64,000 bases of DNA. Origin: Eledone cirrhosa. Lineage: Eukaryota. The DNA is taken from NCBI GenBank assembly GCA_964016885.1, contig OZ024741.1, forward strand, positions 285,200,001 to 285,264,000, read 5' to 3'. Of the stretch, positions 3,163 to 57,957 are shown piece by piece. The notes below the pieces were generated by a model. It ran no database searches. It was not told the DNA's origin and was given only the letters and a program-made list of their open reading frames with translations. Positions within the stretch are counted from its first letter, which is position 1. Every line of letters begins with the position of its first letter. A program made the translations under genes and the position numbers.

Positions 3163-3625
3163 GTAAGTGGGTTTTTGTCTATATATACTGTATATATCTC
3201 ATCATCGTCATCATCACCATTTTACGTCCATTCTTCCATGCTAGCATGGGTTAGACGGGTTGTCCTATTGTGAGCAGTGTCTGGTCAGCTGACATTGTCT
3301 TGCTCATACGAGAACTGATTCTGGCTTGATTTCTACAGCTGGAAGCCCTTCCTAACACCAACCTCATTTACATTGAGTGCTGGGTGCTTTTTTTCTGTGG
3401 CACCTACACGATCACTTTACAGTGTGGGCTGGGTGCTTTTTTGCCGCAGCACCTCCACGACCATTTTGCAGTGGGAGTGGGTGGGGGCATATTGTCTATA
3501 TGCTTCAACTTCGGCTTGTACCCGTGAGAAGTCGGGTCTTCTGTATAACTGCGTGATGCCAGAGGTCACGGTCCTATGTCATCGCCTTTGAGAGGGTGCA
3601 ATTGGGTAATATAGTAAGTAATATA

Positions 3626-13837: not shown

Positions 13838-14618
13838 ATTAATATCATCCAATCAACCACAAAGAAATATATGTTTGATTGGTATATATACCCATTCACT
13901 TTTAGTAATATTCTGAAATGAATGTACTAATTTGCATATAATCAACATTCATATTGATAGTTTGACAATTATGAAATATATAACGAAGTGCGCTAACAGT
14001 GTAAAATAAAGTTATATCTGTATAAATACAGAGTGTGTAACTGAGACTGCTCCACCGTGAATAATTTCTATTTTCCATGCTTGCATGTGTTAGATGGTTT
14101 GTCTCATAATGTATCTAGATTGATCAAGTGACAATGTCTTGTTTGTATGCTCTGTTTTGGCTTGGTTTCTATGACTAGATGCCCTTTCTATTGCAAACTA
14201 CTTTACAGTATGTACTTTTATTGTGACTACAGCACTACCACCTTACAGTGTGGACTATGTGCTTTTTTGTCATGGCACCACACTACCACTTTCCTGGGTG
14301 GACTAACTGCTTTTTTGTTATGGCATCCTCACTACCACCTTCCAGGGTAGACTGGGGGATTTTTGTTGTGGCACCAGCACTACCACCATGCTATATGATA
14401 GTGTTTTCTAATTAAAGCATAAAACCAGCAATTCAGTGGGAGGGGTAAGTTGATTATATAAGCGCCAGTATCTGACTGGCACTTCATTTTATTGACCTCT
14501 GAAGGTTGAACATTTTAATAAAATAAAATAACGAAATATTATACATAAAGTCTACATTATTGATCATGTCATCTTTCTGGTTGTTCTGACTAAATACAAT
14601 AAATCTATTTGTTAACAG

Positions 14619-27291: not shown

Positions 27292-29191
27292 GTGTGGGGT
27301 GGGTGTATTTTATTGTGGCACCAACATTACCACTTTACATTGTGGGTTAAGTGTATTTTATTGTGGCACCAACACTACCACTTTACATTGTGGGTTAACT
27401 GTATTTTATTGTGACACCAACACTACCACTTTATATTGTGGGTTAAGTGTATTTTATTGTGACACTAACACTACCACTTTACATTGTGGGTTAAGTGTAT
27501 TTTAATGTGGCACTACCATTTTACACTGTGGGTTAAGTGTATTTTAATGTGACACCAACACTACCATTTTACATTGTGGGTTAAGTATATTTTATTGTGG
27601 CACCAACACTACCATTTTATATTGTGGGTTAAGTGTATTTTAATGTGGCACCAACGCTACCACTTTACATTGTGGGTTAAGTGCATTTTAATTTGACACC
27701 AACACTACCACTTTACATTGTGGGTTAAGTGTATTTTATTGTGGCACCAACACTACCACTTTACATTGTGGGTTAAGTATATTTTAATGTGGAACCAACA
27801 TTAGCACTTTATATTGTGGGTTAAGTGTATTTTATTGTGACACCAACACTACCACTTTACATTGTGGGTTAAGTGTATTTTAATGTGACACCAACACTAC
27901 CACTTTACAGTGTGGGTTAAGTGTATTTTATTGTGGCACCAACACTACCACTTTACATTGTGGGTTAAGTATATTTTATTGTGGCACCAACACTACCACT
28001 TTACATTGTGGGTTAAGTGTATTTTAATGTGGCACCAACACTACCACTTTGTATTGTGGGTTAAGTATATTTTAATGTGACACCAACACTACCACTTTAC
28101 ATTGTGGGTTAAGTGTATTTTAATGTGGCACCAACACTACCACTTTACATTGTGGGCTGGATGTATTTTAATGTGGCACCAACACTACCACTTTACATTG
28201 TGGGTTAAGTGTATTTTAATGTGGCACCAACACTACCACTTTACATTGTGGGCTGGGTGTATTTTATTGTGGCACCAACACTACCACTTTACATTGTGGG
28301 TTAAGTGTATTTTATTGTGGCACCAACACTACCACTTTACATTGTGGGTTAAGTGTATTTTAATGTGGCACCAACATTGCCACTTTACATTGTGGGTTAA
28401 GTGTATTTTATTGTGGCACCAACACTACCACTTTACATTGTGGGCTGGGTGTATTTTAATGTGGCACTACCATTTTACACTGTGGGTTAAGTGTATTTTA
28501 TTGTGGCACCAACATTACCACTTTACATTGTGGGTTAAGTGTATTTTAATGTGGCACCAACACTACCACTTTACATTGTGGGTTAAGTATATTTTATTGT
28601 GGCACCAACACTACCACTTTACATTGTGGGTTAAGTGTATTTTAATGTGGAACCAACACTACCATTTTATATTGTGGGTTAAGTATATTTTAATGTGGCA
28701 CCAACACTACCACTTTATATTGTGGGTTAAGTATATTTTAATGTGGCACCAACACTACCACTTTATATTGTGGGTTAAGTATATTTTAATGTGGCACCAA
28801 CACTACCACTTTATATTGTGGGTTAAGTATATTTTAATGTGGCACCAACACTACCACTTTACATTGTGGGCTGGATGTATTTTAATGTGGCACCAACACT
28901 ACCACTTTATATTGTGGGTTAAGTATATTTTAATGTGGCACCAACACTACCACTTTATATTGTGGGTTAAGTATATTTTAATGTGGCACCAACACTACCA
29001 CTTTATATTGTGGGTTAAGTATATTTTAATGTGGCACCAACACTACCACTTTACATTGTGGGCTGGATGTATTTTAATGTGGCACCAACACTACCACTTT
29101 ACATTGTGGGCTGGATGTATTTTAATGTGGCACCAACATTACCACTTTACATTGTGGGCTGGGTGTATTTTATTGTGGCACCAACATTACC
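27292..29191. repeat. 48-bp minisatellite, about 40 copies
   Basis: Unit attgtgggttaagtgtattttaatgtggcaccaacactaccactttac; 16-aa periodicity in the ORF track. Confidence 0.97.
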
Positions 29192-29800
29192 AGGGTTACA
29201 TGTTACTTGCTGAGGAAGCGAAAAAGAAAATGTTTGATGATACGTTGTTGGGTGTACCCATCTTTCCATTCTGGCATGGCTGGATAAGGAACGGGGAATT
29301 TAAGGATGTGAGAATGTGTGTGTATGGGGGAGGTGCATCTGTCTTATCATGCTGGTATGGGTTGGACCAGGAAGGAGGGGGAGGGCTAAGATAACAGGGG
29401 AATAGGGTGGAGGGGCAGATAAAATGTATGGGAAAGACCACTTAGTGAAGAAGGAGGTTAGATAATGAGGTAGAGAGATTGAAAGGAGCATGTTTGATAG
29501 GGTGTGGCAGGATCAAAACATCCTTTTACATGTTTTCCCTGGGTCGGGTGCTTTGTCACGTTTACAAGACTCTCATTTCAAAGAATCTCATCTTGCTTGT
29601 ATGTTTTATTTTTGGCATGTTTTCTACAGCTGGATGCCTTTTTTAATCCCAGTAACTTTACAGACAATACTGGGTTATTTTGTTGACCTCATCAGGATTT
29701 ATATTCAGATCATAAAGGTACATGACTAAATACCACAAAGCATTTTGTCTTGTCTTCTAACAATACTGCCAATTCACTGCTGTATAAATACAGAATAATA

Positions 29801-35372: not shown

Positions 35373-35994
35373 TACTGAGTCTAATTACTCAAATATCTAA
35401 ATATTCAGCTATATAACTGTAATATATACTCTTGGGTGTTGAAACAAATCTGAAAAATTAATAAGTCGGGGAGGGATAGGGACGATTTGTAGAGACCCCA
35501 GGGTACACCTTTTACTGTAATATATTAATTTTCAAGAATATGGATTAGAATAGGTACACTGTATCCCTCCATGTGGGATTTACCCATAAAACCTGTGAAA
35601 CTACCATTATTGAGTGGATAAAAGCATCATATGAGAATGATTCTTTTATCCACTCAATAATGGTAGTTTCACAAATACCTCTGAATATGACATCTATTTG
35701 ACTGAACTGATTCGAGTATATTACTGTTAGTTATTTTATAGAACAAATTCTATCAGTCTGCACACAGCAAGATATCCACTTTTATATGTTAAGATAAATG
35801 GAATATTCTTGCAAATAATGTCCTATCTCCATCTCTTACTCCCTCTCTTTTACTTACATACCCACATACACATACATGTGCCTTCTGAAGACGTTTTTCA
35901 TCCTAGGAAGTGATCAGTGGAAAATTATTTATATATTTGAATTATACAGATTATATATTATTTATGATATAAGTTATCTAATTGAGTATGTATG

Positions 35995-50618: not shown

Positions 50619-50728
50619 GTATATATATATATATATAAGAAAATGTTAGACCCACTCTACTACCCTAATTATTGAGTACTCTGGTGCGTTATGGTCCATT
50701 TGTTTCCTTACTTACCACACCTCCTTCG

Positions 50729-50780
<52 letters not shown>

Positions 50781-50970: not shown

Positions 50971-51114
50971 TACGAATTAATGTAGAAAGAACAGGTAAAC
51001 ATGGTGTTGAAATGTGTTCCTCTCTGTCAATTCATCGATATTTCCAGCTCCTGGGTGTGTTGTTAGTCCTACGAGGAACTGGAATCATATGTTTATATAT
51101 ATATATATATATAT

Positions 51115-51172
<58 letters not shown>

Positions 51173-52209
51173 ATATGATTCCAGTTCCTCGTAGGACTAA
51201 CAACACACACAGGAGCTGGACACACATATATATATATATATATGTAATGTCTCTATGCTGTTTATAAATCTCTATATATGTATATGTCTTCGAATAAAAC
51301 CGCTGAGATATAAAACCTTTTCTAGATGCATGAGAAGCCCGCAATATGTTTATTATATAGAATGAAAAAGAAAACATGATTAAAACGATTATGCACTACT
51401 CTATAAGAATGGTGCTTAATAATTATTGTATTGCTATAATCGACTCCTGTAAAGAACAGCAACATGCATCTAGATTTGAACATTAAATACGGTCAAATTA
51501 AATCCCCTGATCTCCACATGAACTGAATAATTATAAAGAAAATCAGTTTCAGCTAATGAATTTTCATCGAACTTGCGTGTTTTGACAAATGTTGTAGATA
51601 TCAGCTACCTATAGCATTGCTACTACAATAATACGAACCCAAACAGTATGGGGAAATGATTTCTGGTGGGCAGAACCCTAGGCAAAAACCACCTTGCGGC
51701 CCCAGCGGACAAATTAAAAAAACATTACCCCGAAGAATTGCGAGCGAGATACGGGTGGGGATCACTTCTGCCTGTGACCAATTTTGCCCTGATAACAGAG
51801 ATTAAGGAGGTGATACGAGGACCAAGAACGCATGAATTATCTACCGCTACTGATTCATCTCACCGGGAAAACGAACACAAGATGTTGGCTATTGTAATGT
51901 CACTCACGTTCGGATCTTAATTTAGTCATTGTCTCATGATCCCACCCAGTGCTATACCACGACACAAGGAGTTCTGGAGTGTGCAATACTTTTCCAGAAC
52001 AACTGGCATATTATTTAATTATAATTCATGCTCTATATCTCTTTCTTACTTCCTCTCTAACAATCTCACTCCTCCTCTGAAAGAAATTGGCTGTGTTCAA
52101 ACCTGAAGAGGGATGCACTCTGTCAGGTTTTAAAATGTTCAAGAAGCACTATATGTCACTACGACACCCCTACAATTCCACCAGGAGTTACTGGTCAATA
52201 CATAGATAG

Positions 52210-52445
52210 AAACCAAAACTATCATAGTTACTTCATGGATGTTACTTCTGACTTGTGTAATGATCTGTACTACTCTTACCAGAAACCAACTGAGTACCTT
52301 CGTTACATACGTAAGTTACCGAATCACCCTTTATATATTATTATTAAGGACTTCGTTCGTAATATATCGCTTAGATTATTTCAAATATCTGGTAACGAAC
52401 ACATTTTCAAAGACCATATATATTACATTAGAGCTTAAACTATAA
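52210..52445 (+). mobile_element. Penelope-like element reverse transcriptase fragment
   Basis: MDVTSDL...YYSYQKPTEYLRYIRKLPNHPLYIIIKDF.RNISLRL..IS.NE.IF resembles the PLE RT thumb consensus (FLDV.F.L...Y.PYRKP...YI...SNHP..I.K....I..RL..ISS.E..F). Confidence 0.7.
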
Positions 52446-54004
52446 AAGACTACAATGCAAAAAGTGTTTAGATTATAACTAAAAATAAGAGAAATACAAC
52501 GAAAAAAAGACTCATTCTAATATTTGTATTATGCTAGTTTGAATAGATGTCTGTATTGTCTTATTTTTATTTCTCTTTATTTAGATTTGTTTTAATTTAT
52601 AATATATTGTTACCTATTCCAATACTTCATTAATACATTTTATAATTTAATAAATTAAACGGTAAATTTTTTGGTCAGTAATAGGGGATATGTGTTTTTG
52701 AATGGTTGTGAAGGGATGGAAATAAGGGATGGAAAAAGCGAAGAAAAATGAAGTAAAGAAAGAACTAAGAGAACTAAGGAAGGTATGGACATTGTATAGG
52801 CGATGATGATGATGATGATGATTATGTTGATGATGATTAAATTAATAATAGGAATTAGTATACTCACACCTACCCACCCAAGTTATTTTTCATTCATCTC
52901 ATTTTCCCATTCATCATCATTATCATCATCCGAAACTCCGCTCCTTATTTGCCAATCTTACTAATTCGTATTATAACATCTATCATCATCATCGCACATA
53001 GCACGTCCATACCTTCCTTATTTCTCTTAGTTCATTTTCATTGATTGTTAAAAGTATAATGATAAAAGAATAACATTCCTACATCTTTGTTATCATTATA
53101 TTTCAACAATAATATATATATACATACGTACACACACATATATATATAAACATTGAGTGTCTCGAAAATTATCGAATCGAAGCGTGAGTGCATTTGAAAT
53201 TTATAGAAATATGTTGGAAACTCGAACAAAAGGAACACCTGTTAAAACGGCCGAGTGCCGTCAATCATAACAGCATGTAAGTCGGACAAGAGAACCCTTA
53301 AGTTAAAAAAAAGAGTCCTAAGTTCAGAAATCAGTGGTCAGTGATTGCTATAGAGAGATAGAAATTGGTGAGGTTGGTCAGATGTATATACGATTGGAGA
53401 GGAATGTGTTGGCACGTATGAATGATAAGCAAAGAAGAACGAAAAAAAAGTGGAGATTAAGGTTACAATAAGAGTCGGGATTAAGGTTACAAATCATACG
53501 AGACGATACAAAACCGCAGATGCAATTGGCCTCAACACCTCTCAATCTGGATTGCAGTTTCGCACGAGCAAATGAGAGGACCGTAATTGTTTAATGGCAA
53601 CTCGTGCAGCAGAAAATGAATAAACAGAACAGACAGACGAATCAGAAAACGAAAGGAAATGTGCCCAGCCAGTGATGTGTTACTAGCTGTTTCTGTTCCT
53701 ATGGATATTTTTGTCTGACTTACATGCTATTGTGATTGACGGCAATCAGTTGTTTTAATAGCTGTTCCTTGTGTTCGAGATTCCAAATTATTCCTATAAA
53801 TTTCATATATATATACTATAAAGATCCCGACGGCTGAGCTCTTACCCTTTCAACAGCCAGTTCCTGACTGGAACTGGCTGTTGAAACGACAAGAGCTCAT
53901 ACGTTGGGGCCCCGACTCTTTATAATATAACCATTCTTTACTACCCCAAATATAGAGTACTCTGTTGAGAAATGGTCTAACCAGTTTCAAACTGATTCCA
54001 TCCT

Positions 54005-54075
<71 letters not shown>

Positions 54076-54245
54076 TGTGTGTGTGTGTGTGTGTGTATAG
54101 CGTATTTTCCACGCACCTATCTAAGCTTTAGTTGAGCAGTTTATAAACAGCATGATCGGGAATTTGCGTTGGCTTTTGTACTTCTGTTATTAAATCGATC
54201 TAAATTCCCCACTATACATACTTACATACATACTTACATACATAC

Positions 54246-54328
<83 letters not shown>

Positions 54329-54660
54329 ATACGTAGCCGAGAAACCGAACGCCGAGGATATAAAATTAATGCAAAGTATATCTGGGAGATATGTGGTTCA
54401 ATTCTTATATTGGCCGATGGCAACTTCTTTTTCCGTTATCGCACTATTTTATAGCATGAGCACACCAACCTTTACATTAATTTTATATTCTAAGCACCTC
54501 AAAGTTCGATCTCTCGGCTACCTATATTGCTTGTTTACATAAGCATGTCTGTCTGTCTATCTGTCTGTCAGTCTGTCTGACTGCGAGTCTGTTTGTCTGC
54601 CGAGATCTGAAAAGCTGGTGTTGAGCTATATAGTTAAAATGTGGGTTGAGACCTGTCACG

Positions 54661-54734
54661 TTCCCTTAGCTTAAGGGTTTACAGCGCCTAGCCGGTATTT
54701 GGGAGATATGGGGGTTCAATTCCCCATAGTGGCC
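54661..54734 (+). pseudogene. tRNA-like sequence (degenerate; pseudogene or SINE head)
   Basis: D-arm-like tagcttaagggtttacagc, anticodon arm cctag-ccggtat-ttggg, T-arm gggg-ttcaatt-cccc; poor acceptor stem; partial second copy at 54376-54480. Confidence 0.5.
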
Positions 54735-54817
54735 GATGGCAATTTCTTTTCCCGTTTTTTAAGGCGCTTCACCCTATTTTATAGCATCTCTGTGCATGAG
54801 CACATCATCTTCTACAT

Positions 54818-54851
<34 letters not shown>

Positions 54852-55187
54852 AACAATGCGTTTTATGGTTTGTTGATTATTCAACAAAGTTAATTTTACA
54901 ACAGATTAGAAGCACTCAACATATTTTTCTGGAGTATCATTAATATTAATAATATTAATAAATGGAAAATATCTTTATAAAATCATATTTATTTTATTAT
55001 ACGTATTTCAAGGGTACTAATATGTATAATAAAATAAATATGATTTTATAAAGATATTTTCCATTTATTAATATTATTAATATTATATATTTATATATAT
55101 AGATCAGGAATTTTACCCGCCCTAGATATATATATATATATATATATAAGTATTTATATATGTGTATGTATGCATATATAGATATGT

Positions 55188-55264
<77 letters not shown>

Positions 55265-55645
55265 CATGCCAGTTATGTGGAATACGATAAAAAGTATTCA
55301 ATGCAAGTAGGGACTATATTTACAATCATTTTGCATTTATTCGACGGGTGCCGTATAACTAGTTAACTAGTTTGTCATGCGATCTTGCATAAGCAACAAA
55401 CAAAATAAATATCTCTCTCGTTCATTTAAAGTTGATACTCTCTTCCATCACAAATCTGTGATTATATATTTATTGATTTTCATTTTCCCCAGAAACAAAA
55501 GCGCAGAAGTAAAAACGAGGACGAATGAAAGATCACACGCGCCTTATATTCCATGTAGTAGCCGAGTGAATCATAGACTTTTCTTCATATATAGTCCGTT
55601 CATGATAAATGTTACAGCATGTGTTGCACAATCTATCTACCTATT

Positions 55646-55684
<39 letters not shown>

Positions 55685-55962
55685 AACGAGTAGGACCCCG
55701 ACGGCTGAGCTCAAGTCGTTTCGACGGCTAATTCTGGACTAATCCAGAATTAGCCGTCGAAACGGCTTGAGCTCAGCCGTCGGGGTCCTACTCGTTCCTA
55801 TTACCCACTCTACTACCCTAAGTATTGAGTACTTTGGTGCGTTATGGGCCACCTGGTTCCTTACCACATTTCCTTCGTTATATATATATATATATATAAA
55901 TACTATATATATGTGTGTATATATATATATATATCATTTATATATATTTATATATATATGCT

Positions 55963-56034
<72 letters not shown>

Positions 56035-57382: not shown

Positions 57383-57798
57383 TATACAATATAACTGTTT
57401 CTACGTTAGGCACAAGGCCAGCAATTACCCAGTGCATTACTGGTACTTTATTTTATCGACCCCGTAAGGATGAAAGGCAAAGTTAACCATGGCGGGATTT
57501 GAACTCAGAATGGCAAGGGCCGTAACTCTATACGTCAAAGCATGGCGTCCGACCCTCTACCATTACTGCCAATTCACCGACCTTTATACAATATAATTGT
57601 TTCTACGTTAGGCACAAGGCCAGCAATTACCCAGTGCATTACTGGTACTTTATTTTATCGATCCCGTAAGGATGAAAGGCAAAGTTAACCATGGCGGGAT
57701 TTGAACTCAGAATGGCAAGGGCCGTAACTCTATACGTCAAAGCATGGCGTCCGACCCTCCACCGATACTGTCAATTCACCGACCTTTATACAATATAA
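57383..57798 (-). mobile_element. Tandem duplication (202-bp period) of a tRNA-derived SINE
   Basis: Two almost identical consecutive copies starting at 57383 and 57585. Confidence 0.9.
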
Positions 57799-57957
57799 CA
57801 ATAGGGAAAAAGTAGACAGGAAATTGTAAAAGAAAATTACTACAAGTGTGTTTAATGAGTGTATAATTAGGAGTTCACACCAAACACACATTTATGGTGA
57901 CACAGAGGATGCTAAAAATATTTAAGCTATATATGTATACATAAACTGTCTGGTCTG

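What the first reader, a model, noticed from the sequence alone, without database searches (positions are those of the whole stretch)
53825..55880. Two paralogous palindromes centred on hammerhead stem II, with mirrored substitutions
55681-55800 is a palindrome with 58-bp arms (1 mismatch) whose right arm reads GAAAC-ggct-tgagctc-agcc-GTC (stem III plus triplet); the CUGANGA half is replaced by the mirror copy. 53825-53909 has the same layout (perfect 17-bp inner stem, GAAACG..gagctc..CGTT). The inner stems differ at five positions, each mirrored on the other arm. Both continue into a shared tail (tactacc..a.tat.gagtact) ending in (TA)n; a third tail is at 50650-50730. The left arm of the 53825 copy resembles the other element more than its own right arm. 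Inference: recurrent self-priming at stem II, or half-ribozymes completed in trans.
Basis: partly seen in the sequence, partly recalled or inferred. Interest (0 to 1): 0.75.

Follow-up and report, generated by a model that had tools for sequence, protein, structure and literature searches.

The report
Penelope stubs joined at RNA start
These mirror-image pieces are two short stubs of a very common Penelope-like jumping gene joined head to head, a known footprint; their meeting point clusters at one spot inside the element's predicted hammerhead ribozyme, which likely marks where its RNA begins.

Summary
Both palindromes are two-armed insertions into (TA)n of two sister families of Hydra-clade Penelope-like retrotransposons (PLEs). 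One 27-mer of the younger family has 8,106 exact genomic matches. Full-length parents carry pLTR-ORF-pLTR, with a natural 724-aa RT plus GIY-YIG ORF. One arm ends at +42 (no tail), the other at +124 (82-bp tail), the published PLE layout. The CUGANGA half is absent because both arms are 5'-truncated downstream of it. Complete cores exist in long copies (CTGATGA; U3-A8 TTGAGAA/TTGATAA). Four of the five mirrored differences are family differences. None of 18 ORF-bearing copies that reach that site stops there. Best reading: twin priming from both cut DNA ends, with run-off at a capped RNA 5' end inside the ribozyme, rather than self-priming at stem II. The RNA start is inferred; no RNA data were available.

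The parts
55649..55682 (.). (TA)n target, left flank of element B
55680..55742 (-). Element B inverted, tail-less arm: family B pLTR from +42 back to -20 (or to -18 plus two untemplated A); numbering from the G of GAAAC
55743..55801 (+). Element B direct arm, -16 to +42: 3' strand of stem II, GAAAC, stem III with palindromic GAGCTC loop, GTC, 3' strand of stem I
   Evidence: native upstream half in long copies
55759..55785 (+). 3' half of a predicted type I hammerhead (GAAAC 55759-55763, predicted cleavage triplet GTC 55779-55781)
   Evidence: sequence; complete versions
55802..55883 (+). One-sided PLE tail (+43 to +124); in full-length copies it runs on into the 5' UTR and the ATG
55879..55973 (.). 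TA-rich right flank of element B
53817..53869 (-). Element A inverted, tail-less arm of the older family A; reaches exactly A(-18) if the 2 nt shared with the direct arm are counted
53868..53927 (+). Element A direct arm from -15 (GAAAC at 53883; triplet decayed to GTT at 53903-53905)
53928..54006 (+). Family A tail, followed by (TA)n 54007-54059
50650..50731 (+). Element C: tail of a family-B-like subfamily between two (TA)n runs; 50633-50649 may be a very short inverted arm (by eye, weak)

Best explanation
Each palindrome is one insertion into (TA)n of two 5'-truncated copies of the pLTR of a Penelope-like retrotransposon with Hydra-clade protein motifs, joined head to head, and likely made when both ends of one DNA cut each prime reverse transcription and both copies run off the 5' end of an RNA predicted to start inside hammerhead stem-loop II. 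Shown: the parent element, the two fixed outer ends (+42 and +124), the (TA)n target, the pile-up of inner ends with a sharp edge at -18 to -22, and complete hammerhead cores in long copies. Inferred: priming of both DNA ends at two internal RNA sites (by analogy with the in vitro work on the anole element, PMC11167929), a capped transcription start at A(-18) of an Initiator-like YAGTC, and joining of the two cDNA ends by microhomology or short fill-in. The mirror symmetry is then a by-product of copying the same short RNA segment twice; the palindrome itself has no ribozyme role.
For: Identity: 8,106 exact matches of a family B 27-mer and 142 of a family A 30-mer; 83 equal-length tailed B ends differ by 2.7% pairwise. 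In most of 30 loci fetched for the ORF start the tail lies about 90 bp before the ATG; 12 of 20 fetched long loci show both pLTRs 3.49-3.62 kb apart, and 1 of 20 (L467) has an unbroken 724-aa ORF with the RT and GIY-YIG motifs. Layout: of the first 90 tailed B copies on C1, 70 have an inverted partner, whose outer end is +42 in 57; 81 of 90 tails are followed by a TA run. Hot spot: direct-arm ends lie in -23..-11 in 57 of 90, in -34..-24 in 3, further out in 12; family A 44 of 89, 0 and 5, mode -18 (13) (1 of 90 not parsed). 6,308 genomic arms have a non-T base before A(-18); of 69 examined, 63 lack the native upstream sequence and 6 are a long subfamily with C there. RNA end rather than RT stall: 0 of 18 ORF-bearing copies that reach this site in the upstream pLTR stop there (Fisher p = 5e-10 against 54 stop / 15 pass). 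The site matches the Drosophila Initiator TCAKTY (PMC1538597, Table 1) exactly in family A and with one mismatch in family B, and A/B sequence conservation starts there. Cap hint: where the base next to A(-18) is not flush with the partner arm it is G 21, C 9, A 5 (T excluded by the search; p = 0.002 against one third). Two primings: the tail-less arm reaches at least 3 nt further 5' in 23 of 70, by 365 nt or more in 4. Same source RNA or locus: arm pairs mismatch at 10.3% of polymorphic cells against 18.2% shuffled (0 of 2000; 24 pairs); 27 of 27 adjacent opposite-strand pairs in the listing share the core variant (counted by eye; about 38% expected by chance).
Against: No RNA data: no RNA holder was listed, so start site, cap and cleavage are unobserved. 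If full-length RNA began at -18, some ORF-bearing copies should end there, and 0 of 18 do; an extra assumption is needed (priming only at the first pLTR of capped RNA, with long copies coming from multi-unit or circular RNA or from strand transfer). In the strictly unbiased family B set the exact-match modes are -17 (12) and -21 (10), with only 2 at -18; untemplated T runs and slip-back through GAC/GTC microhomology could blur this, but that is an explanation after the fact. The G excess is moderate (G:A 23:5 against 7:9 at other ends, p = 0.017), comes from a set selected for a non-T base, and several inserts are templated duplications. Arm asymmetry could partly come from later deletions at unstable palindrome centres. 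Shared variants between arms fit snap-back copying as well. The Initiator consensus is from Drosophila and is short.
Confidence: 0.7

Rival explanations
1. Self-priming or snap-back: one strand folds back near stem II and is copied to make the second arm.
For: Arms usually share subfamily variants; both arms of window element A share a minority G at -7 (4 of 110 family arms); 27 of 70 pairs end within 2 nt of each other; centres do cluster in stem-loop II.
Against: A fold-back copy must lie within its template, yet the tail-less arm reaches further 5' in 23 of 70, by 365 nt or more in 4. It gives no reason for the copy to stop at +42 and join (TA)n in 57 of 70. Junctions carry variable inserts up to tens of nt. 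5 of 24 long pairs differ at the common -26 variant and at least one pair joins two subfamilies (L051).
Confidence: 0.12
2. Twin priming is right, but the hot spot is an RT stall or an RNA cut at -18 to -22 (protein-bound stem II, a host nuclease, or a splice acceptor YAG), not a transcription start.
For: The site lies in an extended stem-loop II; both families have YAG at -19..-17; T runs at junctions suggest RT dwelling there; no ORF-bearing copy ends at -18.
Against: A sequence-encoded stall should also stop RT in internal pLTRs, but 18 of 18 pass. Splicing would leave a constant upstream exon, and the junctions are variable and usually keep the AG. The G excess next to A(-18) fits a cap. 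The predicted fold of the long pLTR is unremarkable (z = -0.9 and +0.8).
Confidence: 0.13
3. A MITE or fold-back DNA transposon with a TA target duplication.
For: Inverted repeat flanked by TA.
Against: The tail lies outside the palindrome on one side only, arm lengths and centres vary between copies, and the parent encodes RT plus GIY-YIG.
Confidence: 0.01
4. The short palindromes are functional half-ribozymes completed in trans.
For: Intact GAAAC, stem III and GTC; near-invariant palindromic GAGCTC loop across families.
Against: As RNA the element folds into one perfect hairpin (-122 kcal/mol) that hides the half-site; element A has decayed (GTT, broken stem III); conservation is inherited from the parent.
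Confidence: 0.04

Closest known systems
Hydra clade of C-terminal EN+ Penelope-like elements (Craig et al. 2021, PMC8557442; passages and supplementary files S1/S2 seen), including Hydra-1_Obim and Penelope-13_HM
   Same: Single ORF with RT and C-terminal GIY-YIG; RW, DKT, CxCX5C, CxxC and CxH motifs; (TA)n target; hammerhead near the element end; Penelope-13_HM is annotated with a 5'-truncated inverted copy at its 5' end. The RT motifs match the listed Hydra-1_Obim protein by eye.
   Different: Not Hydra-1_Obim (its listed hammerhead differs throughout). Unit 3.5-3.6 kb rather than under 3 kb; clear tandem pLTRs; loop II region about 45-50 nt; stem III long with a GAGCTC loop; core shifted from C3-G8 (family A) to U3-A8 (family B), with a C3.A8 mismatch in 37 of the first 100 listed long arms.
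Typical EN+ PLE insertion layout (Arkhipova et al. 2013, PMC3846280, passages seen; Craig et al. 2021 Fig. 2 legend)
   Same: Direct pLTR plus adjacent inverted 5'-truncated pLTR, tail on one end only, palindrome at the junction.
   Different: Tail 82 bp instead of 30-40 bp; most copies are minimal stubs with a sharp shared inner end; the 2013 paper explains the palindromes by self-priming on an antisense template, which the arm asymmetry here argues against.
Poseidon of Anolis carolinensis in vitro (Frangieh et al. 2024, PMC11167929; parts 1-2 of 4 read)
   Same: Two internal RT start sites bounding the tail; both DNA strands cut and extended; AT-rich target; ribozyme catalysis not needed for insertion.
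   Different: Different clade; there the ORF starts inside the hammerhead, here 213 nt after GAAAC; inverted joining and run-off at an RNA 5' end were not described in the parts read.
PLE hammerheads (Cervera and De la Pena 2014, PMC4209133; parts 1-2 of 4 read) and the Drosophila virilis Penelope promoter (Schostak et al. 2008, PMC2377424; passages seen)
   Same: Type I hammerhead in the pLTR, palindromic loop III, the U3-A8 covariant; TATA-less internal promoter with Inr in the upstream pLTR.
   Different: In D. virilis the start lies upstream of the intron whose end maps to helix I, so before the ribozyme; here the inferred start lies inside it.

Membership tests
EN+ Penelope-like elements | Single ORF with RT and GIY-YIG endonuclease | tested here: met
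   L467, 724 aa, QFDIE, YRDDG, VIY...YIG. By motif and by eye: Pfam gave 0 families and PDB 0 hits; 1,974 homologues at E <= 1e-20, the top one carrying PF01541.
EN+ Penelope-like elements | Partial-tandem pLTR-ORF-pLTR | tested here: met
   12 of 20 long loci with both pLTRs; tail precedes the ATG.
EN+ Penelope-like elements | Inverted 5'-truncated copy and one-sided tail | tested here: met
   70 of 90 two-armed; outer end +42 in 57; tail on both arms in 1. Tail is 82 bp, longer than the published 30-40 bp.
Hydra clade | RWK and DKT motifs | tested here: met
   RLRWRTFF (R in place of K) and SDKTG.
Hydra clade | CxCX5C linker; CxxC and CxH beside the conserved E and N; no CCHH | tested here: met
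   CNCPDGSIC 572, CNLC 670, E 675/676, N 689, CKH 698 in L467; only one Cys between VIY and YIG (by eye). Some decayed copies lack the last linker Cys.
Hydra clade | (TA)n insertion preference | tested here: met
   81 of 90 tails followed by a TA run.
Hydra clade | Generally shorter than 3 kb (descriptive, not strict) | tested here: not met
   Unit 3.49-3.62 kb.
Hydra clade | Placement in the RT phylogeny with described Hydra families | not tested
   Published reference sequences were only read, not available as tool input.
Type I hammerhead ribozyme | CUGANGA (or UUGANAA) core, GAAA, NUH and three stems in long copies | tested here: met
   Family A: CTGATGA in 15 of 30. Family B group: 2,040 exact arms; first 100 listed are 63 U3-A8 and 37 C3.A8 mismatch (counted by eye); 3 genomic CTGAGGAG. 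Rfam gives no hammerhead hit.
Type I hammerhead ribozyme | Complete core in the window palindromes | tested here: not met
   Both arms end at or 3' of -20; the core lies at -63..-57 in family B.
Type I hammerhead ribozyme | Self-cleavage | not testable with these tools
   Indirect only: 7 of 90 B ends fall at +21..+23 against 11 in -10..+20; 8-11 of 38 very short copies begin at +23 (by eye); an RT pause at the base of stem III would give the same position.
MITE | Terminal inverted repeats at both ends, fixed length, DNA transposase parent | tested here: not met
   One-sided tail, variable centres, RT parent.
Non-LTR retrozyme (10.64898/2026.07.22.740005, part 1 of 5 read) | Tandem non-coding monomers, each with a complete hammerhead | tested here: not met
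   No tandem monomers at these elements; long copies lead into an ORF.

The most novel reading that the evidence does not exclude
The element's capped transcript starts in the middle of its own hammerhead, so the 5' pLTR carries only the substrate half (GAAA, stem III, GUC). This half is completed by the CUGANGA half of the 3' pLTR or of a second RNA paired through the GAGCUC loop. Cleavage then yields the unit-length, possibly circular, template for full-length tandem copies, while uncut capped RNA yields the thousands of paired run-off stubs. This would explain why stubs stop at -18 and ORF-bearing copies never do.
Probability: 0.15. Interest if true: 0.75.

Novelty: new member of a known kind. 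Interest (0 to 1): 0.4.

Why it matters
How PLEs build their tandem and inverted ends is stated as undefined in PMC8557442, and the published guess is self-priming on an antisense template (PMC3846280). Thousands of young copies here record both outer priming sites and the inner stop, and favour two primings on sense RNA with run-off at one position. This gives exact predictions for 5' RACE and for an in vitro assay with a natural unbroken ORF. The C3-G8 to U3-A8 shift and a successful mismatch subfamily also bear on whether PLE hammerheads are needed. The palindromes themselves are ordinary retrotransposon debris.

Tried and rejected
Rfam: only microsatellite-driven miRNA matches below gathering scores, no hammerhead. 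Pfam and PDB did not recognise the ORF. First long copy followed (L015) turned out to be a rearranged junction, so the sequence upstream of its stem is not native. An early reading that family B had lost the core (CTGAGAA-type in nearly all of 50 arms) came from a biased sample; the unbiased listing shows 63 of 100 U3-A8. Splice-acceptor reading of -18 rejected for lack of a constant upstream exon. A possible MTE/DPE match downstream was looked at by eye and not used. MFE folds of long pLTRs do not give the hammerhead fold. The Fisher test printed (p = 0.0002) is not used because C was excluded at -18 by the second reference; the fairer tests are. In one search four gap-broken parses were replaced by BLAST values, and two BLAST partner calls were dropped as unrelated before the count of 70. 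No paper describing cap-derived G at retrotransposon 5' ends was retrieved (PMC2718515 passages cover only untemplated additions on run-off), so that signature is recalled knowledge. Literature searches listed no paper reporting a truncation hot spot or start site inside a PLE hammerhead; most hits were seen only as listings and subscription journals are not covered. The bioRxiv supplement was not seen. Target-site duplications cannot be read inside (TA)n.

Full report
Observation. Both palindromes, the five mirrored differences and the three tails are in the sequence and far beyond chance (z = -21 and -12). Numbering below is from the G of GAAAC (55759 in element B, 53883 in element A). The claim that A's left arm resembles B more than its own right arm holds only for +4..+24 and reflects decay of the right arm.

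They are repeats. The right arm plus tail of B has at least 1,016 candidates in the 3.0-Gb own genome, the best 40 at 99% or more; one 27-mer has 8,106 exact matches. A belongs to an older sister family (best hits 87-90%; 142 exact matches of a 30-mer). Four of the five inner-stem differences are the majority state of family A among 110 arms; the fifth (G at -7) is a minority variant carried by both arms of this insertion. So the mirroring means that both arms were copied from the same family source.

The parent. Following long copies gives pLTR - about 90 bp of 5' UTR - ATG - ORF - long 3' UTR - pLTR, with a unit of 3.49-3.62 kb in 12 of 20 fetched loci. One of 20 (L467) has an unbroken 724-aa ORF with RLRWRTFF, SDKTG, QFDIE, YRDDG, CNCPDGSIC, VIY...YIG, CNLC and CKH. 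These are the diagnostics given for the Hydra clade in PMC8557442, and the protein matches the listed Hydra-1_Obim motifs by eye while its hammerhead differs. Pfam and PDB do not recognise it; 1,974 database proteins do. No tree was built. The host is likely an octopus (inference, not tested).

The ribozyme. Long copies carry the missing half. Family A has stem I, CTGATGA (15 of 30, the rest one change away), a long stem II, GAAAC, stem III and GTC. The family B group has 2,040 exact arms with the 5' half; of the first 100 listed, 63 have the U3-A8 covariant described in PMC4209133 and 37 a C3.A8 mismatch (counted by eye). The GAGCTC loop is nearly invariant. Rfam does not detect the motif and activity is untested. 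The window palindromes lack CUGANGA because both arms stop about 40 nt short of it.

Insertion anatomy. In the first 90 tailed B copies on contig C1 (chosen by position only), 81 tails end in a TA run, 70 have an inverted partner, and the partner's outer end is +42 in 57. This is the layout drawn for PLEs in PMC8557442 and PMC3846280, and the two outer ends correspond to the two internal RT start sites that bound the tail in vitro (PMC11167929).

The hot spot. Direct-arm 5' ends fall in -23..-11 in 57 of 90 B copies, in -34..-24 in 3, further out in 12, in -10..+20 in 11 and at +21..+23 in 7. Family A shows 44 of 89 in -23..-11, none in -34..-24, and a mode at -18. Genome-wide 6,308 arms have a non-T base before A(-18); 63 of 69 examined lack native sequence upstream of it.

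What the hot spot is. It is not obviously an RT stall: of 30 ORF-start loci, 18 run past the site in the upstream pLTR and none stops at it (p = 5e-10). It coincides with TCAGTC in family A and TTAGTC (plus TCATTT at -22) in family B, matching the Drosophila Initiator TCAKTY, and conservation between families begins there. D. virilis Penelope has an internal Inr-DPE promoter in its upstream pLTR. Bases next to A(-18) that are not flush with the partner are G 21, C 9, A 5, as expected if RT copies a cap (recalled, not found in the papers searched). Against this: exact-match modes in the unbiased B set are -17 and -21, the G excess is moderate, and the absence of ORF-bearing copies ending at -18 needs its own explanation.

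One or two primings. Arms mostly share variants (10.3% against 18.2% mismatch, 24 pairs; 27 of 27 pairs), which fits both fold-back and two copies of one RNA. But the tail-less arm reaches further 5' than the tailed arm in 23 of 70 insertions, the reverse in 20, and by 365 nt or more in 4; it has its own fixed start; and a few pairs differ at common variants. A fold-back copy cannot exceed its template, so two primings are favoured, with later central deletions as a caveat.

Earlier scan notes were opened with content only, after these analyses; several reach the same reading in this and other genomes. They are AI notes and are not counted as support.

Verdict. A new, recently very active Hydra-type PLE family pair leaving a known insertion footprint. 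The added value is the sharp shared inner end inside the hammerhead, which makes the open question of how PLEs build inverted ends testable. Interest 0.4.

Noticed in passing
window 52232-52426: Fragment of a diverged relative of the same RT (49% identity over 65 aa to the L467 ORF, E = 5e-12).
   Followed up: partly
window 51043-51220: About 50-bp near-perfect inverted arms flanking a (TA)n run; no similarity to families A or B seen.
   Followed up: no
window 35593-35674: About 80-bp palindrome with a GAAAC reading toward the centre on each strand.
   Followed up: no
window 52740-53040 and 54925-55085: Two further imperfect inverted repeats; the second resembles an AT-rich sequence that flanks several family B copies (L002, L013, L028, L432).
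   Followed up: no
window 27303-29192: 48-bp minisatellite, about 40 copies, with dispersed relatives at 3367-3473, 14233-14387 and in other loci.
   Followed up: no
window 57383-57799: Tandem pair of a 202-bp repeat, 96% identical, with many dispersed relatives in the window and loci; a 46-bp piece of it sits inside the family B 3' UTR.
   Followed up: no
G000, first 100 places: 37 of 100 long family B arms carry a C3.A8 core mismatch yet amplified widely, suggesting that catalysis is dispensable for copying.
   Followed up: partly
L053, L054, L076, L247: Recurrent 23-nt deletion between two AGCCGTC direct repeats that removes GAAAC and stem III, likely an RT template jump.
   Followed up: partly
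L070:3028-3990 (-): 321-aa frame of another GIY-YIG element (PF01541, E = 1e-4) next to a family B copy, likely a different PLE clade.
   Followed up: no
L309: A further subfamily with a different loop II and a TTGGACAA-like core, adjacent to a family A copy; different families often lie side by side in the same (TA)n run.
   Followed up: no
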